A DNA stretch of 64,000 nucleotides. Origin: Psilocybe cubensis (lineage: Eukaryota). Below are positions 1-31,180 of this stretch, in pieces. The notes beneath the pieces were generated by a model, which was not told where the DNA came from, did not search any database, and saw nothing but the letters and a program-made list of their open reading frames with translations. Both the position numbers and the translations under genes were made by a program. The stretch lies in assembly GCA_017499595.2 (NCBI GenBank), contig CM039009.1:1860001-1924000 (forward strand), given 5' to 3'. How positions within the stretch are numbered: position 1 is the stretch's first letter; each line of letters begins with the position of its first letter.

Positions 1-2555
1 GTGCTACTGCCAATCATTCCGTATGTGGTTTATGACTTTCAGGATTGGATGGCGAACCTCGTATCTCGAACTGGATATGAGCAAATGATGGACGATGCAT
101 GGGAACGGACAAATGTACCATCCGACGGAATCATTGAAGACATTTTTCAAGGAACTGCTATTCGTGAATTCAAAGGTCCTGATAACAAGACACATTTCAG
201 TCTAACCGGAGATGAATCAACTGGGAGGTACCTTTTCTCAATGGGCTTTGACTTTTTCAATCCGCTTCGCAACCTTGCCAATGGAAAGAAGATATCTATT
301 GGAATTATTGCACTCGTCTGCCTGAATCTTCCAATCCATCTTCGATATAAGCCCGAGAACATGTTCTTGGCCGGAATAATTCCAGGACCCAAGGAACCTC
401 GACTTGACGCCATTAATCCATACATTCGGCCAATTGTTGACGTCTTTCTGCTGCTATGGAGAGGCATAAAACTAACGCGTACCGCAAAATATGATATTGG
501 GCGTATTATAGTATGCGCATTGATTGCCATCATCTGTGACCTACCTGCTGCCAGAAAAATAGGCGGATTTGCGGCCTGCACTCACGAATACTTCTGTTCT
601 GTCTGTTGGTGTACCAAAACAGAACATACCTTCAATAATTTTGAAGTGTCGACGTGGAGGAGGAGAACACGCTCTGAATGTCACAATCGCGCTGCTCAAT
701 TTCTCGCTGCCCCGACCTTGAAGCATGCACAGAGTTTGCTTGACAGATCAGGAATACGCTACTCTGAGCTCTGGAGGCTTCCGTATTTTGACCCAACAAA
801 ACATCTTGTTATCGACCCTATGCACAACCTGTTTCTAGGATTACTGAAGGAGCACTTCCAAAATATTCTTGGATATATACCAAAAGGCACAAAGGATAGA
901 AGGAGGCCAGAACTGTGGAATCCGGAAGAGGTTATCTCCGTTAACCTCACCTTTGATCCAGACAACCCGCTGCCAGATCACACAAAAGAACGGGCATCAG
1001 TTCGGAGGTTACTCGCATATCTCAAAGCCCCACTGGGGTTCAGTAAAGATGATGTAATATTGTGTGACGCAGCTGTCAGCCGCTGGAGCACTGTTCATTC
1101 ATCAGCACTAGTATTCATCGGTAGAGGATTGGGCTGCATTCCTCGGTCAGTGATGCCTGATGGGAAGGATACATCAGATCTATCCGGAAAGCGTCGCTTT
1201 ACAAAGAAAAAACTGGCACATATGCTCCTCACATGGGTAAATATTCGCAATGTCATAATTTGAAACTGGTATTGATATAGTAAAATTGTCAGAGGTTACA
1301 GCAGGTAGAAAACTCTGCTCCTGATACGAATAATCAACTGGTTCCTGGGGTAATTTTCACTCAGGACGAAATTGAAGCCATATGGTTGGATATCGAAACA
1401 GTTGTCAAACCATCTTGGGCAACATCGGTTCCGCCAACCATTACTTCGATCGGCCCAAAGCTCAAATCTGACCAATGGCGAAGCATTGGCACCCTTTTTT
1501 TGCCTATTTCTCTCTTGCGTTTATGGGGGAAAGAAGAACAAACCCAAGCGCGGAAGGACCTCCTTCATCTTACCATGTTACTTTGCTCGGCAATCTGTAT
1601 AGTGACGTCTCGAACTATTTCTCTCAAAGGTCAAGCTGACGAGTATAATAATTACATGATACAATATCGGAAAGAGCTCCAGCGGCTCTTTCCAAGATAC
1701 AAATGTCATCCCAACCATCATATGGCTATGCATATAGGAGAGTTTCTTAGTTTGTATGGACCCGTACATGGATGGTGGACATTTCCTTTCGAACGAATGA
1801 TTGGAACTCTACAAGGCATAAACACCAACTACAAGAAAGGTAACAGTATAGATAAAATTAAAGTGCTGGCATTAGAGACTAAAGTCAATTTAATTTTAGG
1901 GCAATTTGAACAGACCATTTCGAAGACTTGGCATCTGTCCTCAAATTTCAAATCATTGTTTGTCAAAAATATTTGCCCCCAGGCCATTCGAGATTGTGTC
2001 AGGATGTTTAACACACTGATCAAGCCTCAGAACAAGAACATGCTTGCAGAGGATACGGACACCGATGACGAAGATATGACATTTGTCGAGCAAACATCTC
2101 ACCGCAAGACGAGCCTTTCTCCTCAACAAATATCGGCCATACAGGCAAACCTTGAAGACCCCTATAAGCGTGTTCCAACATCAGCGTACGTTAAGAATCG
2201 AAGGGTCATTGACGGAATTTCATATTGTACAAACACAGTACACATGGGAAATAGCTGTGTACTCAGGAGGGGCTCCGACATCCCTTACTCGATTATCCAA
2301 ATTCTCGAGTTTGAAAACACCACTATCGGTAAAACATGGCTTTTAGTCCAACGGCACAAAAAGGCACCCGTTGAAGTAGATCCTTATACAAAATATTCTT
2401 ACTTGCGAGCAAAAATATGGGGGCTGGACTTGATGGAAGATATTGAAGCTATACCAATATCTCAGGTGGAAACACATTATTCAAAATGCCAGTTTAATTG
2501 GGCAGGTTCTGAAGTTATTGTAGTGGTTTCACTTTCCCGGGTCCATGTCATATAA
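1..2555 (+). CDS. CACTA/EnSpm-type (Transposase_21/Tnp2-like) transposase, 5' part outside the window; exons 1-1236, 1293-1839, 1900-2555
   Basis: Motifs DFFNP...LNLP..LRYKPENMFLAGIIPGPKEP, CDLPAARK, DPMHNLFLG and HPNHHMAMHI...YGPVHGWWTFPFERMIG are typical of fungal CACTA-type transposases. GT-AG intron 1237-1292 joins the two ORFs in frame (…LTW|RLQQVEN…). Probable in-frame 60-nt intron at 1840-1899. No stops or frameshifts seen. Confidence 0.9.
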
Positions 2556-5500
2556 TCTGATGCCATTTTGTACCTTTTCTTGTTGTCTAATCCATTGCTC
2601 TATTCACACCACAAAAATATACACCTAATTAAGAGATCAAAAAGCTTATGACTAGCAGTTTACTCCGGGTTGAGGGACGTCAGTCGGAGCGACCTTCAAT
2701 CGATCGGAGAACTGATACGTGAGACAACAACGGCAGATAGCTGGTAGAAGCGATGTATAACAAGTACATCACAGTCCTCGCGCACTGCCTCGCCCTTCTT
2801 GGAACGCTAACCACTCGAGTCCCCCATAGAACCCATCGAAAGAATAGAACCACCCACGCATCAAGATACGACAAACATGGAGAAGTTTGGGTCTTCAATG
2901 CGAGTGCGAGGAGGAGGTGCAGGATTGACTGTGGATGCGGAGAGTAATTCCACGTGATGTGTTGATGTTGATGTCAAGGCGAGGTTGCGGTGGTGCAGAA
3001 AGGTTCGGTAGCATGCATGGACTGGGTATGAAAGTGATTTTAAAGCTGCTCGACCATAGAGGAACGAACTGATGCTCGTCAGACCATCGGTTCACGTTTC
3101 TGTGCTGCAGGGAGGATGTCAGCGAGTCCGTATACTGCTTCTTGAACAGCACAATCGCAAAACGGGTGTAGAAACAAAAAAGGGGAATAAACCGGGTGCG
3201 GCCGAACCGCACAATTGACACAAGAGAGCGCAGTTTCCAGAGTTGTTATCGTTTTCCGTGTGCGATGTTGGAAAATATTAATAAGGGCCTGATAGGTGTT
3301 GATGGATGGAGGCACCGTTGAAGAAATCCATTGAACCATACATGCATGTAACACATAGGATGAAAAACATATCAGATCCGAACTTGTTAAAGCGTGTCAT
3401 GCACTCTACCTTCAACAACCTGCTTAACCAGCCGCCTTGAGAAGAGGTGGGGAGGGAAAGCGGACACTCACTGACACTTTTACGGGTACATGTGAAGAAT
3501 CGGCAGGTGCCTTTCAAAGAGGCGTGATAAGCTGTTGTCCCAACTTACCGGATGAAGCAGGCAAATTGCGACATTTGTGAGGGTGTGTCACTTGCGGGAA
3601 CGGTATAGACGACGAGCGGTGGTGGTAGAGTGTATTAAAAGCATAGAAAGGGGGCAGGGATACAGGACGTTGGACACACAATGGTTATTTGAAAAGGGGC
3701 CAATGAACTTTGAAAGACGGGACAGGGGTGGGGAGCGTAAATGCGCCATCTTCACCACGTCTGTGCTGAACTCCTCCATCTCCCTTACCTTACACTCACG
3801 ATGTCGAATGCGGTTGTGTACGGTGTTATCCAACTCCCTCTTCCCTTGCAGCAAATACGCAGAAACCTCGTCACACCGTCTTTCATTCCCCTTCCGTTGT
3901 CGGTTTCTACTTGTGTACCGGATCGTTGGAGGTGTTGTGGTGGCGACAGAGGAAGAAATACCGTTGGGGTGTATGTTCTTGGTACGCAGAGGTAAGAAGC
4001 GGTCGTTCAGGAAGCACATGGGTTGGACAACTAGGAGCTCAGTGGATTTGATGCAAATAAACACATTCGTGTAAAAGGAACTGGAAAGGAGGGAGGGAGA
4101 TTGGTGGCTTAGATGAGGTAAACACGACAATTAGGAAGTTGGGAAAATCCATAGAATTCAAACTCACGAGTGGAGCCTGGACGGAGGGAGAATGTGGGCA
4201 TGTGCGGGGGTAGAATAGTGGGAAGATATCCTCGTCTTTGCGTCGTCTAGGTAAATTTACCGGTTGACATCGTATGCGGAGTGCAAGTTGCTCTCACTTC
4301 TTCCCTTCAAAGTACAGCGCGGTAATTGCATTGCGCCATTTCTCATCATTGTCCGTCGGTACTGCTTCTATCGCTGTGTCTTGTGTTGTCGGAGGTAGTG
4401 GAGGTGAAGTAGGGTGAAGTCAACACCGAAGCACTGAGCAGACGGCGTTGGCGTGTTTGGCGTGTTGTGGATGTGGCAGACCTAATGTTCCGGTATGTGG
4501 CTCTGTGATGACTTTCCTTTGTTCCCAGTTGAATCGGCGGCGGAGGTACTCGTAGAGGGGCAAGGAAGGCAGAGTGTTGTATCAAATTGAGCTGGGAGGG
4601 ATAAGATGATGTGGGCATGGAGGTGGAAAAGGTAGTGGTGGAGGTCAGTGCACCTTGTCGCAATTCATCGTCGGACAAGATGTTGAAAAAAAAAAGAAAA
4701 ACCTTCGCTCGAGTCACGTTGGAGCGGAGTTATTATTGGCAGTGTTGCGAATGAAAGAACGGTCAAGGTAATAGTGATGCCGATGGTGGCGTGTTCGAGG
4801 GAAGATCGACAGCTAATAGCTATGGGCGTTGTTTATTGTGAAAATGATCATGATCATTTCACTTTGCTTTGCATTGCGTTAATTTTGGGATGGTTGGTGC
4901 TGATAAACACTGTGCCAACAAGGATCCCGATGACAGACTCAGAGTAAACAAGTGGCAGATAAGATACGAGCGAAAACGTATGATGTTGATTTTGATGGTA
5001 CCGTGAATACCCATGATCCCAGAGGGTGCGATTTTGAAAATTTCATCAAGGAGGAACTAGTGTAACCGGAAGATAGTAAATGTTTATGTTGCAATCTTGA
5101 ACGGAGTCAGGGCTTACTAGTAGTTGGAGGCCAAATGAACTAAGGACACTGCCATCTTTGGTATCATTCTGAAGCGAGATGGTATATCAGAAGTGGCACT
5201 GAAAAACAAACATCCTAGAATGAGTGGAGGGTCAACACTACCTGCCCATTCGATACCAAAGTTGTCTGCAGTTTCCGGTATAGAACCCACTGCATCCGAT
5301 GACGCAGGCAGTACATCGTCTCCTCTGGACTCGATGTCATAGACTGGACACCTTTTTGTGCGTATTGTCGAGGTTGACCTGGGCGTGTTTCAAGCACGCT
5401 CCGGTGCCTATCAGCAATTCTTCTTCTCCATCATCGTCACTTGATTCATGTTGAAATCGAACTGCTGTGGGAGTCCGAGCCTCATCCCCATCACCACTGG

Positions 5501-6556
5501 AAATGTATTGCGGCCTCGTACTCAGATGGACGCCATTGCCCCCTAAGCAAGGTCACGCCCTCTTGTAAAGTGGTCAGCCAAGTAGTGTGCTGGGCATTTG
5601 TGTTGAAAGTTGAACAATTGTAAAGAGATTGTCAACATTAGTGAAAAAAAGAGGCAAAGACATATTGCCGTATCTTACCCAATACGACCCCACGCTCGAC
5701 CAACACCGGCAATACGATGTGCACACTATATTTATCCTTGCCTGTGACCTCGTCCGTCAGACTACTGCCCACCTCGCGTGCACGGCATTGTACGATAACC
5801 TCCCAGCCCATGAAGCGCAGTAAGTCGGTGGCAATCATTGGGGTTGTTGTAGTTGAGCCTGGATATGGGAGTTCTGTGATGTCGAGGGTACTTGTAACCC
5901 GCAATCTGGACCGCTGGTGCCCTAGCACGCCAGCAGCAGCGCCTCGAGTTTGGCCATGAAAGCCGACGATGCAATAGCGAGGGGGAGGTGTGGTGCACTG
6001 CAACATCAAACAGCGGGGGGCACTGGTGGGTGTTGTCTTAGAAAATATTGAGACTAGATCTGCGAAGACACGTAGATGTGGATTTGGATCCCTCAGCATA
6101 TCTGGTTCGCCAGAACTCGGTAGATAAGAGATATAAACTGCAACATAAAGTCAGATACTGAGTGCCAGAAAATCAACAAACCTGTCACCCACCACTTACT
6201 ACCACATTCGCCGGACGTCCAAATACCACTTAATTAATCTGCAGCATGGTAGTTGTGGTTGGGGGTTAAGGCCGTTAAGGCCTTAAGGAGCGGCAATCAA
6301 ACTCTGGCTAAGGCATGCCGGCGAACCGAACTCCACAACAGAGGGTGGGAAGGGGCAGGGTATGCGGCTCTGACGGCGTCGTTCCACACGGCAATTGTAG
6401 GATAGCAAACATAACACATTATCTAACTCCTTTAAATTCGAATGGTCCTTACTCCAAGACAAATTTCCAGATCTGAGTAGCGACGCAAATCTCAAAAATA
6501 GACAATCACCGAAGTCTAATTATATGGTACTCAAAGTTATATTTAAGGATACAACT

Positions 6557-7533
6557 TTAATCCACTAAGTTATTGAGGGAAATCACGACCTCCACTAATG
6601 CACTGATTGAGTTTGTTTTATTAGAATGGCTGCCTTCGCGTCCACACCTGGGGCAGACGTGTAACCTGGAATATGGCCTAAATTGTTTTTTAAATGCCAT
6701 GATACAATCATGGCAAAATTGATGCCCGCAGCGCGCCAGACTGTATATTAATTGAGGAATAGAAATGAGGATGGATTAAAGATCAAGAGAAGGTAGCATA
6801 CAGGATGGGATTGTTGATGAGCCTCTGGCATAGTTGGCATTGACTATGTGAACGAACATAATCTCTCAGCTAGCAAGAATCAAAAATTGGACACAGTATA
6901 ATAGCGTAGCTTCTCCATACTTGAATCAGAGTCTCTTTGTTGATACCTGGAGACGGTGGTCGATCACCAATGGTAGCCTGTTTCAAATAGTAATATAATT
7001 ATTGATATGGTTGCACATAGACATGATGCGACACATACCTGCGTCAGTGTCTGTTCACTAAAAGTGGTTTCGAGTAATTTTATTGACTCGCCGAGGTCTC
7101 GTAAGCCCTGTTCCATGGCTCAGCATCTTAAAATCACATTCCATGTTGAACATTGAAAGAAAAACGTACGGCTTGAACATTAGATATGGCCTCAACTCTC
7201 TATACAACAAAGGTCAAGGTTTCCCGTGAGGATCCGTAAGTATAGGCCTTAGATATAGGATATATATATTCTTGCCTGAATCACATGGAGTCGGGAATGT
7301 TCAACGTTTTGTAAATCCTTATTGTAGGTTAATTTCAACTGGCTGATTTCCTATGTGCTGTCCGCTTGCGTGAAAAGAAAAAAAAGTAATTATTTCGACA
7401 AACATGTTCAATAAGCGTCATGGAAGCCTGTATTTCCTGCGGTATTCTCTGGTGATTGATCAGTAAAGGTGAGTATAATGATTATCTTCATAGAACTGAC
7501 TTGAATATGGCTTTGATTGTGATTGTGATTCAT
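6557..7533 (-). CDS. Coiled-coil + C3HC4 RING-finger protein (putative E3 ligase), 8 exons, ~186 aa
   Basis: Exons 7533-7501, 7448-7404, 7350-7276 (GC donor), 7199-7170, 7107-7039, 6977-6921, 6869-6802, 6740-6557 splice into one open frame ending …SQCQLCQRLINNPILLARCGHQFCHDCIMAFKKQFRPYSRLHVCPRCG…NNLVD*. Introns are 51-76 nt. TATAAA lies ~80 nt upstream. Confidence 0.85.
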
Positions 7534-8324
7534 GGAAATCTTCCGGAGGTTTCTAAAATGGTACAAACTGGGCGTCGAGAAGAATTGGCGTTTGTTCAAC
7601 ACCTCAGCTTTATAGGTAAAAAACCATAAAACCATAGCCGGATTTTGAGTGGCTTGTTCTCTGAGGGGATGTCAAATTTGTTTATTGGAACATGGATCTA
7701 CTTGGATCGATAACCATAGGAAATCAGGGTCCGTGGAGATGTTTAGATGCACCGATGGCGAATAAATTTGTTGAATGGGACTGTGTAGATGAATGATTGG
7801 ATGCATCAATGGCGAAGATTTTCCGTTTAATGACGATCTGAACGGATGACGTGCGACACGACGCAGTATGCCCTTGATGTCTGGCAGAGGCGTGGTCTAT
7901 GTGACCTTTATCCGACCCAACACGACGCAACATATGGACGTCCGGAGAGCCACAGAGAGCGGTTACTTGTCAAGGTGATTGTCAAGGTGACGGGAGGAAC
8001 GACACATCCCTGCTGGAGGTCACACGCCTCATTCTCTCTCGTTTTTAATCAGCCCTGCTCTGTGCGTTAGAGAATAGCTTTGATCGGTGATCAGAATGAT
8101 CAATGATCATCGTATACGCGCGGTGTCGTAGCAGCCGGCCAAACAACGGGCACGTTAATTCAACTCGTTGTTATCGCGCGCGTAAGTCTCAAACTAAACT
8201 GTGAACAAAAGGTGTCGAAATAGCAAAGATGCTTGTATGTCAGGATGTTTGCGAAGTCTCAATAGATATCATTCAACCAGCGACCATGTAGTACACAAAT
8301 ATGACACTACCGCGGCATAATCTT

Positions 8325-8769
8325 CTAGTTCCTCTTGTGGTTTTCTTTATGTGTGACTTTGCGGTATGCATCGGAAAGGAGCCTGTTTCTGAGTTTATAT
8401 ACCCTAATCTGCGTTGTAAGCGCAAATTTGGTCTATAGTAAGTCCAGCATGATCACAACATCCTTTATTAACTCTTTCTTTGTCAAATTTTCATCAAATA
8501 TACATACTTTATTCTGAAACTCGATGACACTTTCGGCTTGTGAAAGCGCTTTTCTTGTAGCTTGTGCTTCTTGTTGAAGCTGACCAAGTATGGCAAGAAG
8601 TTCTCTGTTATCCTACAAGGCTTGATCAATCACCAGCCTCAAAACTACCCTTAAATATCCAAACCTTTTCTGCGGCTTGGTATATGTGCATCATATCTGC
8701 TAGATGAGCACGCAATAATTCACTTTCAGTGCATGCTCTGGAAGGAGGGAGAGCCAGAGAGGACGTCAT
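8325..8769 (-). CDS. Small 3-exon helical/coiled-coil hypothetical protein (~105 aa)
   Basis: Manual splice: MTSSLALPPSRACTESELLRAHLADMMHIYQAAEK|DNRELLAILGQLQQEAQATRKALSQAESVIEFQNK|TKFALTTQIRVYKLRNRLLSDAYRKVTHKENHKRN*, with two phase-0 GT-AG introns. Confidence 0.6.
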
Positions 8770-10080
8770 TTTGAAGTGAATAGAGAGACGATACAAACGA
8801 GTCATGAGAGTACCCAGAAACTATCAGTTCTATTTAAAGAAATTCACAAATTTAATTTGCTAGGTGATCCACTTCTCGACTGGGGTGTAGAATAAGCAGA
8901 GTGCCAAAATTAGACTTGTGGTTTGGGACATGCATAAAGGTCCCGATGCGAGTGTCGATTATCTCCATACTTAGTTCCAACGCACGAATTGCTGCGCAGT
9001 GCCCTTATAGTATACCGCTAACCATAATGGTCCAGGTGCGGAAGGTATATCCTATGTTCATTCCACCCGGTTACTACCTCTTGCAAATGCGCAACTGCAG
9101 TTGGAATCATTGGGTCACGTACACAATCTAAATTAGTCCAAAACCAGCAAATAACCAGGAACTCGTCATAGTTACGACTCATCATAGCTGCGACGTTGTT
9201 CTCTCCCATAAACTCATCACCCAATTCGGACACCTACTTTCGGAGTGTAGGATTAAAATGGCATTTGGTTGTACAACGTGCAAATCAAGCTTACGAATCT
9301 TGTATAAAGGTTTTGCGAGTTTAAAGCCTCCTCCCCAATTACACCCAACCAAGTACCTTCAACAAACGTAGCGTTCTAAATGCTCAGAGGACTTTTTTTA
9401 AGCCTATCTTCAGCGCCTTCGGATTCCGGAACTGACATTGGGGCATCTGATGCCGTTGGTTCTGACAATCATAGCCCTGAGGAAATACCCCACCTGGAGG
9501 CAAACATCCTTGTAAGATAATATCAATACTCTAAGAAATATTAAACGGTTTAAAAGTTGTGGAACCAGGCGGAACCCAAGACACGTCGAGGCTCACGGAC
9601 AAGACGATCTTCCCCCTTAACTGTAAGTTGAGAATTTTACAGCCAATACTGCTTAATCGACTAATGTTTATCAGCGCTCTCGTTCAAAGCTCCGAATATT
9701 GGGCGACACGGGGGTGGAGCGACCCGAAGAGCCGATAGATAGTGGGACCTCTGGGCGTCCGTTGATAATTGGAAGCCTTCGGAATACAGTACGCTATATC
9801 CTATAAGTATGAGCTGCCAGAAATTTTCACACTGCGGCTCCGGAACGATTTAGGTTTCTGCAGCAGGAAGCCTAGACTCCGAAAACACGGAGACAGATCA
9901 AGACTGCCTGAGGGAGATATGTGAAAAGGCTCTCGTATGTGTTATATCAGCTAAGTATACGCTGAGAGACATGCTTATACAACATAGGGTGGATACCAAG
10001 AATCAGATGTTGTTACCGCAGCACGCATGATCGTGAGTTTAGCCTCATAAACGGAGCATTCACACGTCTCACAATGCATC

Positions 10081-13000
10081 GTGCGACAGCCTGGTAGTTT
10101 CAACTTTGGATCTGATGGAGAGGGCGAGCCGATCGAAACTACTCTAGGAATAATTTCGGTATGTGATGTTAATTCTCCATGGCAGTGGTACAAAAATGAT
10201 AACATTTTCATCAAGAACTCCCGAGAGAAGGGCCAAGAACACGCTGACTCAGAATATCGTGCCACGAACTTACAGGTGAGTTACGAAGTAACTGGGTTTT
10301 GACTTTCTTCAATGAATTCTATCAAATAGCGTGCGGGATCCAAGCGTAAACGGCAGGAAGACTCTGACTTGATGGTAAGTAAAAAATCCTTTGATTGTGC
10401 GGTGTATCAACATATACCCAAGGAAAAGATCAATTGGAATACGGAGTCAGCTCAGGATTCCCATAAACCGGCTGATGTTAACACCAACATTGATATCGGG
10501 GTATGTATGCCCTGTTATTTTTGAGTAACTTGCATAGATCATATTCATTGGTACTTCCACGCACTTAGATTTCACTTGAAGGGCCGCCTTCATTTAAAAG
10601 GTCGCGTGATGATACTAAAAACACAAATGATATGCAAGGTCGGGTAGGTTTAGTTTCATAGACTCCTCTACAACTCAAACATTTCTGACCTTAAAATATC
10701 GCATTAAGGATTCCAGAGGAGCGGAATGTTTAGTCAGTGGTGCATGGCTCTTCTAATAAGGACAACGCTCAGTTTGTTTCCCATAGGAATATGACGATAG
10801 GAATAAAGTTAGAATTATTGCGCCAACGTCATTTGATGATATCCAAGATACCGTGAGTTGAATGGTATAATTCAGGAAATATGCAGTGATTGAATAGTAA
10901 CTTCAGGCACGTAATATAAATCACAGTCTGGCAAAAGAGCTTGAGAATGCATATTCTATCATCAGGTTGTATGAGAGCCGTGAACAGGTATGTTATATCT
11001 CATTAGAAGTATCAAATTGCTAATCACCTATGTCAACAGGATACCCAGGACACCCAGAAAACCAATACAAGTACTTTACGTTCAGAGGATCTTGTAAGCC
11101 TCTGAGAGCAATAGCCATCAATATATTGAACTAATCCAACGAAATAGGCCAATGAAATGAATGGAAACGTCAGTCTCCAGCAGGAACGAGATTCTATACA
11201 AGAAACCTTTGTGGAAATGCTTCGAGTCCATGGTTCTACGACGGAACATACCGAGTTAGAGAAGCCACAGGAAGCACTTGATTCTGAAAAGGCGCAATAC
11301 CAGCTATTTGAGAAACAACTACAGGATGCGAACATTGCGACACAAGAAATGGAGAAGAAATTGCATCAAACTCAGATTGAACTACGGAACATGGCAAATG
11401 AACTCACTGAGGCAAAGGGTGGGCTTATTGATTCTGAGGAACGCTTGATAAAATTGCAGGCAGACTTCGAAAAGTCCGACATGGAAAAGATGAATGCTCT
11501 ATATTCTGCCAACCAGTTGGCTGAATACTACCGGACCCTCTTGATTGAGGAAAAGAATCACTGCAACACTATTTCTGCCAGAAATGAGGAGCAGATAGCC
11601 GAAATTATCAAGCGCGCAGACGAAGAACTCGCGGATAGCTGCTTGCTCGTTGAAGAAACTGCTCAGATATATGAAGCTACATTGGAAGACCGCCATAGGA
11701 GAGAAGTAGCCGAGAAATGTAAGGCCGAAGTCGAGAAAGCGGCGGCTATGGCAAAACAGTCCCAAGATGCTCTTGCATCCAAGGAAGTCGAACTTCGGGA
11801 AGCAAAGCTAGCCATTAGTCAACAGAAACATGAGCTGGACGCTTCCCTTGAAAGCCGGCGACTTCTTGAGGGTGAATGCGAGCGTATCCTACAACAAATG
11901 GATGACATCCAGAAGAATTACAATGGTAAACTAGCAGATCAGAGGGAGCGCGCAGAGGCCCATCGCTTGGAGATCTCGCAACTTGATGAAGTTATTCGTG
12001 ACCTGCAAGCCCAACTAAGACAATCGGGTCGTAACGAGCAGTCCGACAAACGAAGACTAGAGGAAGAACTTCGAGCCACTAAAAGATCTAATGAACAAGA
12101 GCGCCTTAAACTCCTCACTGATCACTCTTCAAAACTCAACGCCCAGTCACGAGAGCATCAAATCGAGGTGGATCGCCTTCGGGAAGAAGAAAGAGCTATG
12201 AAAAACCAGCTTGCGGATGTCAACATCCTCTTGCAGGAGAAAAGTGAATTAGTCATCTCATTAGAACAATCCAAACTCGGCTTGGAGACGGAACTGGATA
12301 ATCAAGCAAGGAAGATGGTATGTTGCAATGATGATGATGAATTGCTGTATTCATGGATAATAAAATATTTTAGGAGGAGTTGGTAACTGCACAAAATACT
12401 GTGCAAAATGAACTGGAACAATTTCGTAGTCAATGTGAGCAGCTTTCCAAGATAGTTGAACAGCAAGCCAAGGATATCGCAGAAGAAGAATCAATGGTAG
12501 TGGTTCGTTATTTCCCGGCAATGCTAGTGTGTCGCATTCTGATCATCTTTTAATTAGACACTCAATCGCGAAGTGGAAAGACTTACAAATGCTCAAAAGA
12601 GCGAGGATATCTATGAAGTAGAGAATAATACCACTATTACATCTGAACACGGTCACCCCAATCGTGTTGACAAGGGAAAGGGTAAAGAACGAGAAAGGAC
12701 ACCTGTCCTAGACCATATGCTTGTATGCTTTGCGTCTCGTCTTTTGTCTTCTCAGAGAGTCTCAGAGATATTTTTCATAGGCTAGCCCAGGCTTTCAGCC
12801 ACCCACGTCCTTATCATCATCGCAAAGCGCCGGTTTAGTAAGGCATATTCTTTACTTTCAGAATTCCGGGCTGATGGATCACCAAACTTTCAATTTATGC
12901 TCAGTCACGCGGCGTCAGGTTTGCTCCATGTCCCCATGTCGCCGCTGGCCCGTCCCGCAAGGGTTCAAGTCGTGAACAATCCCCGCCTCTTCTACCACCC

Positions 13001-14282
13001 GGTTCGCACAGATACTCAAGGACTCCGGAGAGGAACAGTGTTTACCTAGCTTCGAGGCAGTCCACCCCTACTGCAGGACAATCTTTTTCAAACTCGCATA
13101 CATCATTAAGGTCAGACTCTCATATGGTTAGGGACACGAGTCAATCTCTAGCGTCCCCGTTTTTGCAAGAGGACGCCATAACTACAAATTCCGACATCAA
13201 AGCCATGCTTTCTGAACTTGTAATCCAAATTCGTGGAGACACGAGATCAAAGTCAACAAGACCTCGTAATAGTCCCTTTAGAGCCGAGTCTCCAACCCCC
13301 CGTCCGCGGACAGTCCATCGAAATGATTTAACGGTGTGCTAATTCCAAAATTTTTTTTGAGCATCAAACTAAACGTTATACAGAGAGAAGTCCGTTGCTA
13401 CATGAATAAACTTTTGGAAATTAAGCAGGATTCCAGCATCACAACTGCCTATGAAAATGGCCACTTTATTACCGAGGAAGAATACGAAGCTTTTGAAGAA
13501 GGCACAATGGATTTTGAGGATATTTCCATCGACTTCCTTAGACCATATTGGAAAAAGCCGAAATGCTCTTACAATGCACTGTTGGCTGAAGACTTCACTG
13601 AAAAATTTGTCGCTGAAAATCCTGAGTTTGAAGATCACAGGGAGGAAGTTTCGACTCACTTTATTCAACGAATTGGTTCTTTGAAAGCCCATCTCTCTCT
13701 AGCATTGTCGAAAGCAGGGGAATCCGAAGCACAGCGTCAAGAACGCACAGCAAGAAAAAATAAAGCCGTCCGTCAAAATACTCGGCGATATAATGTAAAT
13801 CAATCCTTGTTATGAACCTCTTTTCGAAGCAAACTTACACAATGTAGGGTTACAACCGCCGTGTAGCCGATGTAAAAGCACGTGCCGAAATAGATCCAGC
13901 ATACGCACCAGTACTTGAAACCATCGAATGCCTCGGAGAGTATGGCTACAGCTCTGACGAGACGGATACCAGCGTCCCCAGAGGACAAGGCTACCTTGTA
14001 AGACGAAAATTGTGGCGAAACAAAAAGTTACGACGCGTTATAAAGATGGCAAATGATTGCCGTAGAACAACAAATATCAATGGCAATAGCTTGCCAGGGG
14101 CACAACAAAGACCTCGCCGTTATCATGATAGCTATGGACCAATCAGTGCAGCACCGGCACCTGTTGGAAAGCCCATCAATTATTACGACTCTGATTTCTT
14201 GGACGAGCTCTCAGCAACAGAATTTAGAGTGCTGAGACCCACTAGCCCTCGCCCATTTATCGGAGAGGAAGATGAAGATTAA
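10081..14282 (+). CDS. Large multi-exon coiled-coil protein with a C-terminal domain of the kind seen in second ORFs of basidiomycete DNA transposons; 5' end uncertain, possibly from ~9380
   Basis: A run of micro-exons at 10330-11093, a ~390-aa E/K/Q/L-rich heptad exon at 11148-12317, an S/P-rich middle, and a C-terminus with …LGEYGYSSDETD…RRKLWRN…GKPINYYDSDFL, stop at 14282. The C-terminal assignment is from memory, not a search. Confidence 0.65.
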
Positions 14283-15679
14283 CTCCTTTAGGGTGTGGAG
14301 GATCAAGAATCCACTTCCTATAATTAATATAGTATTATCGACTTCCAAATTTCATGAATTTCTATTACACTCACGAGCATGATGCATTACACAATCCTGA
14401 GTCCTGTGTGTAATATGTTTTCGGATTTATCTCTGACATCTGTATATTTCGACGTTTGCACGATTACAGCGTGAAAACTTGGTGTCGGCCATGAATCCAC
14501 AACTCGTTCTCCAAACTACACCCAACGCCACCAAAGCTATATGCCATCCACGCCACCAATGTCCTCCCCGATGTAGAAACCCATGCACACCGGAGATGAT
14601 CCTGAATCTGGCTCATAAAATACGAAGGTTGCTGCACGCGCATTCTCTTGGTACATTGGCGGGATGTATGAATTTGGAACGGAATGAGAATGCAGATTTA
14701 CCCCACGGAAAAGGGTGTTGGAGAGGTTTACGAGAATGGAAGATATGGGAAGAAGATCCGCATGCAAGAGAATTCAGCGTGGATCCATGCATATGCAACC
14801 GTGAGAGCATCTGCACTACTGACGTGATGGTCGTGCAGGGCAGGAGCCTTAGGCCAGACGCATTGCAGACGCGTTCAACAGCCCTGAAATAAAAGGTTTT
14901 AAAGGAGTTTATTAGCTTGTAGTGGCTATGGATTAGCTTTGTAAATGTTGAGGCTCAATACATCTAATAATATTTCTGTAAAATACAAGCATCGTACACC
15001 CAAGTAACTGTTATATCGTACTCTATACACTAATACCTAACCCTTATAGATGCCACAACATCGGTCAAGCGACCCCCAGACGTTTTTGAGTTGACGATTC
15101 CATAACCTCCGGTTCCTCGCCTCCGCCTCAATACCGCAATGTCGCTCATTCCAACAGCTTTCTCTCGTTTCCATACTTCCTTGGCACTAGCCCAAAGTTT
15201 CTCGGCCCCGCCCAATGTCCAGAAGACAGACGGAAATGAAATTTGTAGTGAAGCATTTCGAAGAGGATACGTACGTGGAGGATGTTTGTATGCCATTTAC
15301 ATTGTTTCCTGCTTTTTTGGGGGGTTTGGGGCGCCGAATACGTTAGGGTTGATGTGTAGAGATGTGTGTATGAGCTTTGGGTGGGTTGGTGGTGTGAAAG
15401 TTGGGAGGTTGAGTCTTTGTCCTTCGTGTCATCCATTGGTCCGTGGCTTGTGTTCAAACGTTCTTGATGGAACAGTGTACGCGACAGGACAGCATTGCTG
15501 CTGCTGGTGCGGAGGCTCGTTGACAATCATCGAATCGAAGTCGCGGTCGCGCATCTGCCTTGGATGTCCGTGTTGCTTTTGCACCTGTGTGTTGTCGCTG
15601 TTGCGAATCCGACTGTGTGTCTTGCTGAGTTTGAATTGAAAGTGACATAGGTGACAGGTTTGCACCACTGGAGTGCCGC

Positions 15680-15747: not shown

Positions 15748-15796
15748 AGCATTTCAAACTCCGACACCGTCCACTGCATCAATTGGCAATGGTAGT
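15748..15796 (-). repeat. Putative right terminal inverted repeat of the large element
   Basis: 15748-15786 reverse-complements to 17394-17432 with one mismatch. It continues outward as caatggtagt (ACTAC on the minus strand, CACTA-like but lacking the terminal C). Confidence 0.7.
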
Positions 15797-15847
15797 CTCG
15801 CAAGCCAGACCTTCTGAGGTGACCTGATTTTCTAATCTCGGCCCCAG

Positions 15848-16488
15848 ATCTTCGGGAGCGGTCAGCGGAGAATGAAATCGGAGTCAAAATTTATGAGAAA
15901 AAAGATGTACAATGAGCCACATTTCAAGCCTTGGACATCCAGCTCCTGGGCTCCTGCTGGTTACTCATCACGCTACGACCTTGTCGAACAAACAAAGGCG
16001 GCCCAGGCACGCAAGCCGCTCGCGAGTGGTGCCATTGAAGAGAAGCAAATCGAGCACGCCGGACAGCCGAATGGCGTCAATGGACAGGCGGTCCCTGGGT
16101 ATACGGCTGCCCCCGGTGTTGGAGCAGGATTCGGAGGCGACGCGGGTGCGGGAGGTCTCCAAGCTCCTCAAACGATGATGAACATGCCTAACTTGATCTC
16201 CAAGGCACTCAGGGTTACAGACGGGCTTCGAGTCGCGTTCCACCGCCACCCAGCGATAGCTATACACTGCCTCCTGAAAGTGGGTTCGGGTTCGCGACTG
16301 GGGCTGCTGTGAAACCCGGTCCTGGGGGACGTGAGATTACCGTGGACATGGACCCCAGCAGGGGTCTGCAGGGCGGAGTTGGTCTGACCAAGGAAGGCCC
16401 TCCGGGAGGTATCGGAATGTCGGAAGCTGATGGACACGGAAACAAGGGCAACAGGTTGGAAGCGGGAGACTTGGGGAGGGTGCTGTGA
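15848..16488 (+). pseudogene. Orphan 3' exon of an unidentified host gene, with a frameshift
   Basis: Branch point ctaat and cag acceptor at 15845-15847, then IFGSGQRRMKSESKF…. A frameshift near 16190 continues as DLQGTQGYRRASSRVPPPP…GNRLEAGDLGRVL*. No upstream exons are seen before the TIR. Confidence 0.5.
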
Positions 16489-17393
16489 GTTATCATGACC
16501 CTGTTTCCTCTCTGCACTTACATTATTCCACCCATGCTATATATTGGATTATTATAACAGACGACATGATGTCATGATTTCTCCTACATATCATAGTTGT
16601 ATGATAGCTCGGTGTATTATTTTATTATACGGCTTGCGGGATTCAGAGACTGGTCCCTCAAAATTGATGGTTTTGCGTTCCGTTATCTTATGTGTGGACG
16701 TCAGTTTAATTATTCATGGTTTTACCTTAACTCCTACCGCCAGTATGCAGGGGTGACGCGCGTCCATTGTCAGTCGTGTAGTCGTGTATATATCATATAA
16801 GTCTCGTGCTGGGAATTTTTTTTTTCCGAAAAAAAAATAGCAATCGGCGTAGCATTGCCGACCTTCAGGGACAGGGGCTGTTAAGGGCCAGTTATCGACG
16901 CTTCCGAGGTGGTTCATGTCTAAGCTCATGGCCGATGTACTGTGATTGGGTACCATAGGGCTACAATTCTCGATCAACGTGTACAAGCGAACATGCCTCA
17001 CCTTTGGTCTTCACCTTTGGTCTGCATTGCCTTCATACACCCCTGTGCTTCAATGCAAGTCTTTATGTGACGTCGAGGTTGGGGGGAGCTGCACATTGCG
17101 CAGACGTGGTGTTACGCACATCGTAGATTGAAAAAATATGTGAGAGTTCTGGCAGTTAGGTCGAACCCGGACTTGTTGGGTGGAGTACGGGGTTACAACT
17201 GACGATCGTGGTGCGGTGGGAGTCGAGACTTAAAAGCGAAACAGAAACAAGTCGAAAGAAAAAGGGAAAGCGATGGCATGAGCCCTCCGCAGAGCTACTT
17301 ATAACATTGACCGCCATGAACCGAATGCCAACCAGCGTTCGAGATTCGAGGAATAGACTTAACCCCGGATCTGGTTGAAGGGGCGCGTTGGTA

Positions 17394-19245
17394 CCAATTG
17401 ATGCAGTGGGCGGTGTCGGAGTTTGAAATGCTTGTTCTGCTGCTCACGTATCTTCCGACTTCGTCACTTTTAGTGACGATCCGACCCTCGCACTCACAGA
17501 ACTGCAATATTTTCTGACTTTGTTCACACTGTATTCTCTATTCTCAAAATCACTGCATAGTGTCGTGTTCGGGTTACCCGCAACCGATCAACCGGCTCAA
17601 TTATAAATTTCCTTTTACGACTTCAGTCATTGTGTCATCCATAAATATCTTTTGACTGTAAGTATCACATTCATTGTGTTTCGATTTCCTTTTAGGCTGC
17701 CAGATTGTTGTGAGATACAAGCAAAAGTGACAGTGTTGAGCTTTGTAGTAGTATCCATGGTTTCGATTTCCTTTTAGGCTGCCTGATTGTGGTGAAATAC
17801 AAGCAAAACTGAGAGTGTTCAAAGGTTTTAAGGCCTACCATTTTCTCCGGCGACACAAAAGACCTCAAACCGCGTGGACTTTCAACGGCAGAAAACTCGT
17901 CTTTTTTATCTGATTCGCCATATGCCTCCAGTATATGTGTGTCACTGCACGTTTCGGGGTTGTGGAAACGATCCGAATGGGGTCACGCTGTCATGCCGTG
18001 TTTACAAGGACCATCAGGCAAGGGAGGAGAAATACCAGCAAGGCCTGAACTATCTGAAGCTTCAAAGAGAAGCTATAGAGAGACAAGAAGACCGAATAGC
18101 TCTGGAATTAGACAACATATCCCCGAGTGACCCCATTGCTTCCTTTTCATCCTTTACCCGAGAAGCCAAATACAGAGCCGACCATAAAAAACGTCTGATA
18201 GATAATATCAGCCTAGCGCGCAGAGATGTCCAGGCCCTACTCAAAGATATCACAAGCATCGGCAAAGCTCCCATTAATTATCCACCGGCTCATGAGATTG
18301 AGCATTCCCTTCACCAGTGTTCGGAAATTCGGAAGTCTGTAGAGCAACCATCCCGAGTGCTCCATACGGCACAAACCAGCGCTCTCCGTAAAGAGCCATC
18401 CATTATAGCCATGCGAGAGGCACTGCACACAGACATCGATGAACTCGTGTCACTTACGAACGATATTGAAAGGTCGTGGATTGCGGCCTCGGTTGAACGT
18501 CAGGAATACGAACGTTTACGCCAGGGAAAGTCAGACTATAATACTGGTAAGTCTCCCTTCTACATTCATGTAGAGCAGAGTCTTACAGTTCCGCCCTTTA
18601 AGACCGGCATTTTGAACCTATATTTGTAGGGACGTCACCTATCATACAGCTCGCATCGTTGATGGTGGTCGTGTGTAATGTAATACTTGGCTTACCACGA
18701 CGTGGATGCTTCTGGCTTTTCGAAATGTGCGCGTTCATTGTACAGGGAACCGCCGAAAAAGCGTTTGGGAATGGTCGACTGACACCATATTTCATCAATT
18801 TACTCTCACTTTTTCCCCGTGATGTGAGAACCCAAACATTGATGTTTCGACTTGACAGTGAAGCCACAATATACGCAGTCTGTCCAAAATGTCATGCTAC
18901 ATATAAGCCAAGCGGAAAAACCTCTCTGCCAGTTTATAGAGAGAGATGCAACTCAAAACGATACAGCAATCGTTGTGGTGAAATACTTGTACAGCCAAAG
19001 ATCATACAAAACAGGCGTGTCCTACTGCCAATCATTCCGTATGCGGTGTATGACATTCAGGATAACCTTGGCAATGGACAGAAGATGAAGACATTAAATG
19101 GAATTATGGGACCTGTTTGGCGGAATCTCCCATTCCATATTCGATGCATGCCCCAGAACATGCTCTTGACCAGAATAATCCAAGGCCCCAAGGAATGTAA
19201 CGCTGCCCCGACCTGGAAGCAAGCACAGAGTTTACTTGTCAGATT
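17394..19245 (+). mobile_element. Second, internally deleted copy of the CACTA-like element: left TIR plus 5' part of the transposase
   Basis: TIR at 17394-17432. 19019-19063 matches 1-45 (41/45), ~19064-19196 matches ~271-396 and ~19201-19244 matches ~705-748. Confidence 0.85.
17678..17819 (+). repeat. 60-bp direct repeat, period 82
   Basis: gtttcgatttccttttaggctgcc…atacaagcaaaa…agtgtt at 17678-17737 and 17760-17819, 5 mismatches. Confidence 0.9.
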
Positions 19246-19441
19246 TCAGCGAGTCGCATACCGGCCCAGAGAATTCACGATCAAATCAAAAAGAGTAACA
19301 CGAACGAGCACTTGTGCAAGGCCGCCTAGTGGGGAAAAGATTACTGAATGTGGAAATCGTGAGGGCGTTTTGGAATTGACCTTGTCCTGTATCTCTATCG
19401 TTATATCCCCACTCCTTCTATATGTTGTGCTGTACGGTTAG
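17922..19441 (+). CDS. Truncated transposase: N-terminal Cys/His-rich and helical region retained, most of the catalytic core deleted; exons 17922-18546 and 18603-19441
   Basis: Starts MPPVYVCHCTFRGCG…HQ, then a GT-AG intron, then YAVCPKCHATY…C…RCGEIL…VLLPIIPY (the same peptide that starts the window), then fused fragments of the core. Confidence 0.75.
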
Positions 19442-22522: not shown

Positions 22523-23388
22523 CTATCCCATAGTCTGTCCGTCTGTGGTGTTGATAAATTCCATGAGCTCACGCAATACCGTGTTAGCCATTCCTATTTT
22601 CCCTCTTCTACCACAATTTGGACAGAGATATATTCGTCTGAATCCTCTCCATTTCCTTTCATATTGAGATATGCATCTATTGCAGCACCCATGTCCGCAT
22701 TCGAATGAACTAATTGGCAGTTAGTGATTCAGCCGTAAAGTCGAATAGAGAAAATTTACTGACAGTGACGAATGTTTGATGATCGATGAACATAGTGAAC
22801 ATCGTGCGTGACGAATGATCAAAGCTTTTAACTTCCATTACGGATGTCAGTAGTTAATCATTTCCTCTCTGTAAAAGCACAAACCGCGTCGAATTGGTCT
22901 GCGTACTGTTCCGCGTAACCGCTGTTGAAGGACACGTCACCCTGAAAATCACTAACATTAGCAAAATCTTTATGCTCGACGCAACAAGAAACTTCAAACG
23001 CACATTTCCGACTTCAATACCGAAAGCTTCGGTAACTCTGATGACATGTTCGATGCTTGTGACATTCTAGCTAGAGCTATCAGAAAAGGGATAGGCCTTT
23101 GTACAGGTGGCTCCTACGTTCTTGCAATCGACCAACTCCTTTTCTATCTGTTAAATGGGACATGAAACCATGGGTAAGACGATGAAGGTCACATGAATTA
23201 ACCTTTTCGAAAGCCAAGAGTTTTGATTGCAGTTCTTCTTTGTAAATTTCTCGTATGTGTTGGAGTTCTCTCAATCTCGCATCAAGTTTCTAAGTCATGA
23301 ATTACACACTATAACTAATTGACACCGTGCGTATGCTCACCGTTCTAATCATAGTATGGATAGGGAGGTTGCATACCGTTTCCGACAT
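22523..23388 (-). CDS. Second coiled-coil + C3HC4 RING-finger protein, 7 exons, ~179 aa, paralog of 6557-7533
   Basis: Exons 23388-23341, 23289-23203, 23147-23118, 23066-23004, 22941-22885, 22831-22764, 22709-22523 give …RHARCSLCSSIIKHSSLSFECGHGCCNRCISQYERKWRGFRRIYLCPNCGRRG…MG*. The start codon is less certain than the rest. Confidence 0.85.
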
Positions 23389-30633: not shown

Positions 30634-31180
30634 GGGCGTTTGACTCCATGTAAAGCATTATTTCCACATATAAGTAGTAGGTATGGCTTCTGTACATCTT
30701 GGCCTAACGTCCTGTCGACGATTTCATTATTCAAGAAGTAATTCAAGAAGTAAAAATGTTGTTGAACTGCAGCACTACAATTGCAAGGAACGTCAAATTT
30801 CGGATTATAAGCACTTGACCAGTCAATAGACATACGGTATGCCTGGTATGCCAAATTTGGCGCGCTTAGTTGGAACCGAATCATCAAAACCGTAAAGGTA
30901 CATCTGAGATCTGAGATTTGGTCTAACATCATACAGTTTACGATGTGTCATATGCACATCTCAGCAGGTACGGTGAATCTTGATATGCGTTTTCTACATC
31001 ATGGCATCTGTATTCCGCCCTGTACATATCTAAAGATCTGCGATTCATGAGCTTGCAGGATGTAGGTATAAGTAAAGCGCGCGACTTTGTCTGATAGATG
31101 CTGTCGCCTTCGAGTTCGCCTCTGTGTTTTTTTACTAATTTCATCCACTTTCCGGGTCGTTTCTCGCATACGTTTTTGAA

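What the first reader, a model, noticed from the sequence alone, without database searches (positions are those of the whole stretch)
6557..7533. Hidden 8-exon RING E3-ligase-like gene inside the transposon
Seen: no ORF in the track shows it, but seven 51-76 nt introns splice into an uninterrupted 186-aa protein. It has an N-terminal coiled-coil and a complete C-x2-C-x12-C-x-H-x2-C-x2-C-x16-C-x2-C RING, split by a phase-2 intron. Established: C3HC4 RINGs are typically E3 ubiquitin ligases. Inference: an element-encoded ligase could degrade host silencing factors or regulate the transposase or partner proteins. I do not know of this as standard CACTA cargo.
Basis: partly seen in the sequence, partly recalled or inferred. 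Interest (0 to 1): 0.8.

Follow-up and report, generated by a model that had tools for sequence, protein, structure and literature searches.

The report
Orphan RING-finger gene near CACTA transposase
A real but unannotated small RING-finger (ubiquitin-ligase-like) gene, with a diverged twin 15 kb away, lies in a transposon-rich, strain-variable stretch of a fungus-like genome; it may be transposon cargo, but this is not shown.

Summary
The RING is real. On the minus strand, 6869-6802 and 6740-6557, joined over a 61-nt GT-AG phase-2 intron, give exactly the stated C3HC4 spacing. The second-half motif occurs 2 times in the window against 0 of 300 simulated windows. Profile and PDB matches are to TRIM/BRE1-type RINGs. 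A diverged paralogue (22523-23388, same strand) has introns at the same two places, so these exons are genuine and constrained.

The six upstream exons are only plausible. The 186-aa model needs one GC donor, 28,382 splice paths of that kind are open, codon usage does not beat decoys, and no transcript data could test the junctions.

The gene lies 4 kb downstream of an apparently intact tnp2/CACTA transposase. The surrounding block is single-copy, was not found in another strain, and may end at a CACTACAAGC terminus at 14924. 'Inside the element' is therefore likely but unproven.

Cargo status is not supported. The two RING genes share no DNA similarity (32% aa), whereas the two transposase copies are 76-91% identical, and no relatives were found anywhere.

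Best reading: a lineage-specific small RING E3-like gene family in a transposon-rich accessory region. Interest is moderate to low.

The parts
6557..6740 (-). RING-1 last exon (184 nt with stop TAA 6559-6557): Cys3-His-Cys4-Cys5...Cys7-Cys8 of the RING plus a 25-residue tail
   Evidence: Pfam zf-C3HC4_4 E 1e-4. PF00097 23.3 bits on 6560-6775. ESM Atlas neighbours are all RING clusters.
6741..6801 (-). Intron 7 of RING-1: 61 nt, GTATGC...ATACAG, phase 2, three codons before Cys3
   Evidence: The phmmer alignment runs through the junction. RING-2 has an intron at the same place and in the same phase.
6802..6869 (-). RING-1 exon 7 (68 nt): starts 10 codons before Cys1 and carries the first C-x2-C
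   Evidence: RING-2 has an exon that starts at the same place (10 codons before Cys1, phase 0).
6870..7533 (-). Putative upstream part of RING-1. Exons: 7533-7501, 7448-7404, 7350-7276, 7199-7170, 7107-7039, 6977-6921. Introns: 7500-7449, 7403-7351, 7275-7200 (GC donor), 7169-7108, 7038-6978, 6920-6870. Unverified.
   Evidence: The model is reproduced. It is not better than decoys by codon usage. The heptad signal across the exon 3/4/5 joints is weak.
22523..23388 (-). RING-2, a diverged paralogue. The hand model has 165 aa and 6 GT-AG introns: 23376-23290, 23202-23148, 23117-23067, 23003-22942, 22884-22832, 22769-22710. The RING exons are 22831-22770 and 22709-22523.
   Evidence: tblastn of the spliced RING-1 model finds it at E 1e-9. 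Model. Pfam PF00097 21.8 bits on 22526-22720. Identity over the last exon is 32%.
1..2555 (+). tnp2/CACTA-type transposase, open at the window's start. It reads through 1-1236 and 1293-2555 if 1237-1292 is a 56-nt GTAAAT...CAG intron (832 codons in the window).
   Evidence: Pfam Transposase_21 E 1.1e-10, 41.5 bits against a cut-off of 28.6; weak DUF4218 match. The intron was read by eye.
14915..14924 (-). Candidate 3' terminus of the CACTA-like element (CACTACAAGC on the minus strand). An alternative CACTACAA lies at 15243-15250.
   Evidence: the motif count is not above chance. Read depth in X9 steps up within bin 14675-15341, and the X11 contig match starts at 14950.
19019..19244 (+). Internally deleted remnant of a related transposase, inside the open frame 18602-19438
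   Evidence: blastn: 1-45 matches 19019-19063 at 91%, 271-396 matches 19064-19195 at 76.5%, and 705-748 matches 19201-19244 at 91%.

Best explanation
The locus holds a genuine, intron-rich gene for a small RING-HC (C3HC4) protein. It is one of at least two old, fast-diverging paralogues on the same strand of this window (RING-1 6557-7533, RING-2 22523-23388). The family has no detectable relatives elsewhere.

RING-1 sits in a strain-variable, single-copy block. The block begins with an apparently intact tnp2/CACTA transposase and probably ends at a CACTA-type terminus near 14.9 kb. RING-1 is therefore most likely physically within, or swallowed by, a large CACTA-like element. It behaves like a resident or captured lineage-specific gene, not like cargo that is copied along with the transposase.

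Inferred mechanism, not shown: the C-terminal RING recruits a ubiquitin-charged E2, and the mostly helical N-terminal part and the conserved flanks of the RING mediate self-association, as in TRIM and BRE1-type ligases. The substrate is unknown.
For: THE RING IS REAL.
- The spacing is exact.
- The half-motif occurs 2 times in the window against 0 of 300 simulated windows.
- Pfam PF00097 is above its cut-off on both contiguous frames: 23.3 and 21.8 bits against 21.
- The best solved relatives are TRIM69 (E 3.2e-4 with the two-sequence profile), TRIM39, RNF125, TRIM5 and BRE1.
- All ten best Atlas clusters that carry a family are RING clusters.

THE EXONS ARE CONSTRAINED.
- RING-2 keeps all six metal ligands of the last exon, among 18 invariant columns of 65, at 32% identity.
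- RING-2 also keeps the first C-x2-C.
- Both genes have a phase-2 intron three codons before Cys3 and a phase-0 intron ten codons before Cys1.

THE SETTING.
- Transposase_21 lies at 1-1263, and one 56-nt intron links its two reading frames.
- Depth of X9 raw DNA reads is 12.4-18.5x over the four transposase bins and 17.5-18.5x over the three RING-1 bins. It is 52-58x over the true repeat at 15.3-17.3 kb.
- X11 contigs, from a strain with the same species label, have no depth on 1-2668 and 4003-14674. X11-X13 hold next to none of the locus's sampled words.

NOT COPIED WITH THE TRANSPOSASE.
- The transposase patches are 76-91% identical in DNA, whereas the two RING genes give no blastn match at word size 7.
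- These two features are the only collinear similarities between block 1-15.7 kb and the rest of the window.
Against: - No transcript evidence exists, so expression and the seven junctions are unverified.
- The N-terminal six exons are not statistically supported, and one intron needs a GC donor.
- The N-terminal parts of the two paralogues are barely alike: local score 36 against shuffles of 26.4 +/- 5.0, reached by 105 of 2000 shuffles.
- The order 'transposase (+) then RING (-) 3.3-5.9 kb downstream' occurs twice. This could instead mean linkage.
- The block's absence from other strains, and its position between a transposase and a CACTA-like terminus, fit cargo as well.
- Residues after the last Cys are Gly-Arg in both paralogues, not the usual basic residue directly after Cys8. 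That position is recalled from other RING ligases and was not tested here.
Confidence: 0.5

Rival explanations
1. The RING gene is a bona fide accessory gene of a large (>15 kb) autonomous CACTA/EnSpm element. It is moved with the element and serves it, for example by ubiquitinating host silencing factors or regulating the transposase.
For: - It lies between a Transposase_21 gene and a candidate CACTACAAGC terminus at 14915-14924.
- The whole 1-14.7 kb block has uniform read depth in X9 and has no depth in X11.
- The transposase frame looks intact.
- A second transposase remnant is also followed by a RING gene on the opposite strand.
- Precedents from passages read: RING fingers fused to transposases in Chapaev and RAG1 of the same broad clade (PMC4411706); fungal EnSpm/Plavaka carrying TET/JBP genes (PMC12730594); 16-20 kb En/Spm elements with 4-5 ORFs in a red alga (PMC6431247).
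Against: - The block is single-copy at 90% likeness or more.
- The two RING genes are far more diverged (32% aa, no DNA match) than the two transposase copies (76-91% DNA).
- There is no similarity between the DNA that follows the two transposase copies.
- The 5' end, the pair of inverted ends and the target-site duplication cannot be seen.
- The motif count is not above chance: 5 matches of the 8-mer against a mean of 2.04, with 5 of 100 shuffles reaching 5.
- The gene is antisense to the transposase.
- No relatives were found in 1.84 billion representatives or in metagenome contigs.
Confidence: 0.2
2. A decaying relic. Only the two RING exons are remains of a once functional or captured gene fragment. 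The 8-exon model is an artefact of choosing among many possible splice paths, and nothing is expressed.
For: - 28,382 open paths exist, and 0 with GT donors only.
- Codon usage of the upstream exons does not beat decoys: 16 of 147 decoys do as well.
- There is no in-frame ATG next to the RING exons.
- The surroundings are rich in transposon debris.
- The locus is absent from other strains.
Against: - Two paralogues at about 30% identity both keep all eight ligands, the Pro before Cys8 and both intron positions. This needs long purifying selection.
- Both loci allow complete ATG-to-stop models with short introns.
- The heptad pattern runs across the predicted exon 3/4/5 joints (12 of 1000 shuffles).
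Confidence: 0.25
3. A chance arrangement of Cys and His codons, with no gene at all.
For: None beyond the ease of splicing an open frame.
Against: 0 of 300 simulated windows hold even one half-motif, while the window holds two, both with x16 spacing. There are also profile matches and a paralogue with conserved intron positions.
Confidence: 0.01

Closest known systems
TRIM-type RING-HC domains (TRIM69, TRIM5, TRIM39; PDB 6yxe, 4tkp, 2ecj)
   Same: C3HC4 spacing and the C-G-H-x-F/C-C core. They are the best sequence matches among solved structures (E 3.2e-4 for TRIM69 with the two-paralogue profile). The TRIM69 match covers profile positions 3-52 of 65. Both are associated with helical, coiled-coil-like sequence.
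   Different: There is no B-box: the 103-residue N-terminal part has 0 Cys. The RING is C-terminal, not N-terminal. The protein has only 165-186 aa and is fungus-like, not animal.
BRE1 / RNF20-type ligases (PDB 8t3t, 4r7e)
   Same: The order coiled coil, then C-terminal RING, then a short tail. It is the best single-sequence PDB hit (E 0.017).
   Different: BRE1 is a several-hundred-residue protein conserved across eukaryotes (recalled). Here the protein is under 190 aa, has no relatives outside the window, and is similar in the RING only.
RING finger of RAG1 and of two Chapaev transposase subgroups (CMC/Transib clade)
   Same: A RING finger encoded by a DNA transposon of the wider clade that includes CACTA/EnSpm (passages of PMC4411706; PMC12730594).
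   Different: There the RING is an N-terminal domain of the transposase itself. Here it is a separate gene on the opposite strand, 4 kb away. No specific sequence likeness to RAG1 was seen: it is not among the 14 PDB hits at E up to 1.
TET/JBP dioxygenase genes carried by fungal EnSpm, Plavaka and KDZ transposons
   Same: Accessory, possibly anti-silencing genes inside fungal DNA transposons, including EnSpm with 5'-CAC..GTG-3' termini and 3-bp duplications (passages of PMC12730594).
   Different: Those genes recur in many copies and families with defined ends. The words 'RING' and 'ubiquitin' occur 0 times in that paper's main text. Its supplementary tables could not be seen.

Membership tests
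RING-HC (C3HC4) zinc finger, Pfam PF00097 | Eight Zn ligands as C-x2-C-x(9-39)-C-x(1-3)-H-x(2-3)-C-x2-C-x(4-48)-C-x2-C | tested here: met
   RING-1 has x12 and x16 loops after splicing of intron 7. RING-2 has x10 and x16.
RING-HC (C3HC4) zinc finger, Pfam PF00097 | Profile score above the curated cut-off | tested here: met
   23.3 bits (6560-6775) and 21.8 bits (22526-22720) against a cut-off of 21, although only profile positions 14-40 of 40 are on the contiguous frame. The spliced full domain could not be sent to the tool.
RING-type E3 ubiquitin ligase (function) | E2-contact residues: a hydrophobic residue inside the first C-x-[ILV]-C, an aromatic residue four residues after Cys6, and Pro after Cys7 | tested here: inconclusive
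   By eye, both paralogues have Leu, Phe/Tyr and Pro at these places. Which positions matter is recalled from other RING-E2 structures, not computed here. Gly, not a basic residue, follows Cys8.
RING-type E3 ubiquitin ligase (function) | Ubiquitin transfer activity with an E2 | not testable with these tools
   This needs an experiment.
TRIM (tripartite motif) family | N-terminal RING followed by B-box(es) and a coiled coil | tested here: not met
   The RING is at the C-terminal end. The 103 residues before exon 7 hold 0 Cys, so there is no B-box.
BRE1 family | A long coiled-coil protein with a C-terminal RING, conserved in eukaryotes | tested here: not met
   The model has only 186 aa. Likeness is limited to the RING (E 0.017). 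No relatives of over 105 residues were found.
CACTA/EnSpm transposon (the surroundings) | Transposase of the tnp2 / Transposase_21 type | tested here: met
   PF02992 E 1.1e-10, 41.5 bits against a cut-off of 28.6, on 1-1263.
CACTA/EnSpm transposon (the surroundings) | Inverted ends starting CACTA and a 3-bp target duplication, enclosing the gene | tested here: inconclusive
   There is one candidate 3' end at 14915-14924 and an alternative at 15243-15250. The 5' end is outside the window, so neither the pair nor the duplication can be checked.
Transposon cargo gene | Recurs with the transposase in independent copies at matching divergence | tested here: not met
   There are no extra copies at 90% or more in X9 reads. 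The transposase remnant is 76-91% identical in DNA, but the neighbouring RING-2 gives no DNA match and is 32% identical in protein.
RAG1/Chapaev-type transposase RING | The RING is a domain of the transposase polypeptide | tested here: not met
   It is a separate gene on the opposite strand, 4 kb from the transposase stop at 2555.

The most novel reading that the evidence does not exclude
An apparently intact, strain-polymorphic fungal CACTA/EnSpm element of more than 15 kb carries a stand-alone coiled-coil RING E3 ligase gene as working cargo. This would be a free-standing counterpart of the RING fused to Chapaev and RAG1 transposases. The element would use it to ubiquitinate host silencing factors or its own transposase. 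The diverged second RING gene next to a deleted transposase would be the remains of an older member of the same lineage.
Probability: 0.2. Interest if true: 0.65.

Novelty: new member of a known kind. Interest (0 to 1): 0.35.

Why it matters
As it stands, the locus adds an unannotated, lineage-restricted RING-finger gene pair to a transposon-rich, strain-variable region. This is useful for annotation. It also shows how short-exon genes escape ORF-based tracks.

If the gene were shown to travel with the CACTA element, it would be a first stand-alone ubiquitin-ligase cargo of a fungal DNA transposon. It would join TET/JBP genes as a candidate counter-silencing device, and would make the old link between RING fingers and CMC/Transib-type transposases (RAG1, Chapaev) testable in a fungus.

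Tried and rejected
- **Whole genome.** None is held for this window. Copy counts and the element's 5' end could not be taken from an assembly.
- **RNA evidence.** No RNA holder is listed for 6400-7700. Two runs guessed to be RNA (X14, X15) gave no contig on 6557-7533. They match the stretch only at 90-95% on repeats, so their strain may lack the locus. This says nothing on expression.
- **Relatives of the RING exon.**
  - Word-indexed search, longer proteins: none, with the single exon and with the two-paralogue alignment.
  - Exhaustive HMMER over 1.84 billion representatives: 8 hits at E up to 0.001. The best is a low-complexity repeat protein; the rest are generic multi-RING or TRIM-like proteins.
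  - Metagenome contigs: none in either scan. 595 and 402 pattern matches were found, and 0 were confirmed.
- **Relatives of the 412-aa open frame 11148-12383.** None, and no Pfam family.
- **Earlier notes of this scan.** Nothing by place, sequence or words.
- **Ends of the element.** There are no long inverted or subterminal repeats in 2.5-16 kb or 17.3-27 kb, no tandem arrays, and no second copy of the 18-mer terminus within 3 mismatches.
- **Codon-usage test.**
  - A plain frame test looked good (+14.9 against -22.7 and -25.1), but it is biased because the frame was chosen to be free of stops.
  - The fair version against 200 natural decoys is not significant.
  - The same optimiser changes 2 of the 5 upstream introns of my RING-2 hand model. 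The shared 30-nt and 57-nt exon lengths of the two models are therefore suggestive only.
- **N-terminal likeness of the two paralogues.** Not significant.
- **Literature.** Three searches listed no paper on a separate RING gene in a fungal CACTA element. A paper on captured genes in fungal Helitrons has 0 occurrences of 'RING', 'ubiquitin' or 'zinc finger'. Supplements are closed and could hold such cases.

Full report
**What is at the coordinates.** The feature is on the minus strand.
- Frame translations show a first C-x2-C in 6869-6802.
- In another frame, C-x-H-x2-C-x2-C-x16-C-x2-C lies in 6740-6557 and ends at TAA 6559-6557.
It has seven introns of 52, 53, 76, 62, 61, 51 and 61 nt, eight exons of 33, 45, 75, 30, 69, 57, 68 and 184 nt, and 186 aa.

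**Is it more than chance?** For the RING, yes.
- The second-half pattern occurs twice in the six frames of the 64-kb window and in 0 of 300 simulated windows.
- Pfam gives zf-C3HC4 and zf-C3HC4_4 for the last exon (E 1e-4 to 4e-4).
- PF00097 scores 23.3 bits, above its cut-off of 21, for the contiguous frame 6560-6775.
- ESM Atlas neighbours are RING clusters, with recognition 2821.
- Eight RING-like proteins were fetched with the last exon alone. When the spliced model is aligned to them, the alignment continues upstream through the junction into the first C-x2-C. This checks intron 7 independently.

For the rest of the gene, no.
- With GT or GC donors and 51-76-nt introns, 28,382 different seven-intron paths are open from the ATG to the stop. 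With looser limits there are 135,885.
- With GT donors only there are none. A GT alternative nine bases upstream would drop three residues.
Of 200 natural decoys, 147 had an open path, with mean 6.21 and sd 2.88, and 16 of them did as well.
- A home-made heptad score gives weak support for helical continuity over the exon 3/4/5 joints (12 of 1000 shuffles).

**A second copy.**
- tblastn of the spliced model against the window finds a paralogue on the same strand at 22834-22553 (E 1e-9).
- Its RING is split at the same spot and phase: phase 2, three codons before Cys3.
- The exon that carries Cys1-Cys2 starts at the same spot, ten codons before Cys1, in phase 0.
- My hand model runs from 23388 to 22523, with 165 aa and six GT-AG introns of 87, 55, 51, 62, 53 and 60 nt.
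- Over the last exon the two are 32% identical, with 18 invariant columns of 65, including all six ligands there.
- Two genes this far apart that keep every ligand and both intron positions have been under selection. The RING exons are real coding sequence, or were until recently.
- The N-terminal parts are not significantly alike (105 of 2000 shuffles).
- The two models share 30-nt and 57-nt exons. However, the optimiser changes two of the five upstream introns of my RING-2 model, so I treat this as suggestive only.

**What kind of RING?**
- The best solved relatives by sequence are BRE1, TRIM69 and TRIM5 with the single exon (E 0.017-0.04).
- With the two-paralogue profile they are TRIM69 (3.2e-4), TRIM39, RNF125, TRIM5, TRIM34 and TRIM31.
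- It is not a TRIM: there is no B-box, 0 Cys in the 103 N-terminal residues, and the RING is at the C-terminal end.
- It is not BRE1, by size.
- No relatives turned up anywhere: word-indexed searches, 1.84 billion representatives (8 weak, generic hits) and two scans of metagenome contigs.
- It is a lineage-restricted family.

**Surroundings.**
- The window opens inside a tnp2/CACTA transposase (PF02992, E 1.1e-10).
- Its two long frames, 1-1263 and 1284-2555, are joined by a canonical 56-nt intron (1237-1292, read by eye). At least 832 codons therefore read through.
- RING-1 lies 4 kb downstream on the other strand.
- The reverse complement of 14915-14924 reads CACTACAAGC. From memory, this resembles the maize En/Spm end. 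The 8-mer also occurs at 15243-15250.
- The number of such motifs is not above chance. What supports the site is its position:
  - Raw DNA reads of strain X9 give 12-24x in 21 of the 22 bins from 1 to 14674 (38x in the bin 4670-5336).
  - Depth steps up within the bin 14675-15341 and reaches 52-58x over a true repeat at 15.3-17.3 kb.
  - An X11 contig begins to match at 14950.
- X11, which has the same species label, has no contig on 1-2668 or 4003-14674. X11-X13 hold next to none of the locus's words.
- X9's depth over the block is about half of what 1632 million letters over a ~45-Mb assembly would give, and about half that of 17.3-19.3 kb. This would fit presence in one of two haplotypes, but that is inference.
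- Taken together, a discrete, strain-variable, single-copy block that begins with a CACTA transposase and includes RING-1 is likely.
- That the block is one transposon cannot be shown, because the 5' end is outside the window.

**Cargo or resident?**
- A remnant of a related transposase lies at 19019-19244. Three patches are 91%, 76.5% and 91% identical in DNA to 1-45, 271-396 and 705-748, with clean internal deletions.
- RING-2 follows it 3.3 kb downstream on the opposite strand. The order transposase(+) then RING(-) therefore occurs twice, which speaks for linkage.
- The two RING genes have no DNA similarity at all, and nothing else downstream of the two transposase copies is alike.
- If transposase and RING had been copied as one unit, they should be about equally diverged. 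They are not.
- There are no further copies at 90% or more in X9.
- I therefore favour a resident or captured, fast-evolving gene family in a transposon-rich accessory region (0.5) over true cargo (0.2) and a dead relic (0.25).

**How it would work (inferred).** The RING would bind a charged E2.
- Both paralogues keep Leu in the first C-x-L-C, an aromatic residue four positions after Cys6 and Pro after Cys7. These contact positions are recalled from other RING-E2 complexes, not tested here.
- The conserved stretches just before Cys1 and after Cys8, and the helical N-terminal part, suggest self-association as in TRIM and BRE1 RING dimers (recalled).
- The substrate is unknown. Nothing here points to silencing factors.

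**Literature.**
- Passages of Kapitonov and Koonin 2015 (PMC4411706) state that a RING follows the Chapa domain in two Chapaev subgroups and in RAG1, and that RING fingers were then known in no other transposable elements.
- Passages of Kojima 2025 (PMC12730594) describe fungal EnSpm and Plavaka elements with TET/JBP cargo. The words 'RING' and 'ubiquitin' do not occur in its main text.
- A passage of Arkhipova and Yushenova 2019 (PMC6431247) cites 16-20-kb En/Spm families with 4-5 ORFs in a red alga.
- Searches listed no report of a separate RING gene in a fungal CACTA element. Supplements were closed.

**Verdict.**
- Observation: partly confirmed. The RING, its split and its last two exons are solid; the six upstream exons are unverified.
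- Interpretation: partly supported. It is RING E3-like and probably lies within a CACTA-like block; a cargo role is not supported.
- Novelty: a new member of a known kind.
- Interest: 0.35.

Noticed in passing
window 15748-17432: A roughly 1.7-kb element bounded by 39-nt inverted repeats (97% identity; 15748-15786 and 17394-17432). It is the only clearly multi-copy DNA in 1-20 kb. Depth is 52-58x in X9 reads against about 17x nearby. It is also matched by contigs of X11 and of two runs guessed to be RNA. Many reads have loose ends at 15792, 15833, 15902 and 17365.
   Followed up: partly
window 17678-19438: A related transposase reduced to three abutting patches (19019-19244) by clean internal deletions, yet still inside a 279-aa open frame (18602-19438). 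It is preceded by a 265-aa open frame (17832-18626) and by a 60-nt direct repeat (17678-17737 and 17760-17819, 92%) that could be a subterminal repeat.
   Followed up: partly
window 25467-26183 and 33401-34204 (+): Two paralogous coiled-coil-like open frames (about 29-31% identity over 144-157 aa; tblastn E 1e-16). One has a weak Golgin_A5 match. No known family.
   Followed up: no
window 11148-12383 (+): An uninterrupted 412-aa, Glu/Gln/Lys-rich open frame between RING-1 and the candidate element end. It has no Pfam family and no relatives of 226-721 residues.
   Followed up: partly
window 12875-14889 (+): Four consecutive open frames (155, 162, 144 and 151 aa) that end just before the candidate terminus at 14915-14924. 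For 13848-14279, the ESM Atlas neighbours are basidiomycete 'hypothetical protein' clusters (score 0.97, but recognition is low at 997).
   Followed up: partly
window 3573-4002 and 4670-5336: Segments inside the block have raised read depth (24x and 38x against about 17x). 43 reads diverge to the left of 3573. Contigs of two runs guessed to be RNA match 4726-5015 at 90-95%. These are pieces of other repeats or genes embedded downstream of the transposase.
   Followed up: no
window 1-14674 versus 17343-19343: X9 read depth over the block is about half that of 17.3-19.3 kb (about 17x against about 30x). It is also about half of the run's expected mean for a ~45-Mb genome. This would fit a block present in only one of two haplotypes or nuclei.
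   Followed up: partly
window 29713-30657 (-), 41291-42325 (-), 55039-55782 (+), 60907-61509 (+): Ordinary-looking host genes lie to the right: a 315-aa frame with no Pfam hit, Duc1 (E 1.2e-18), a C2H2 zinc finger (E 1e-9) and an ASXH domain (E 2e-11). The transposon-rich part is the left half of the window.
   Followed up: no
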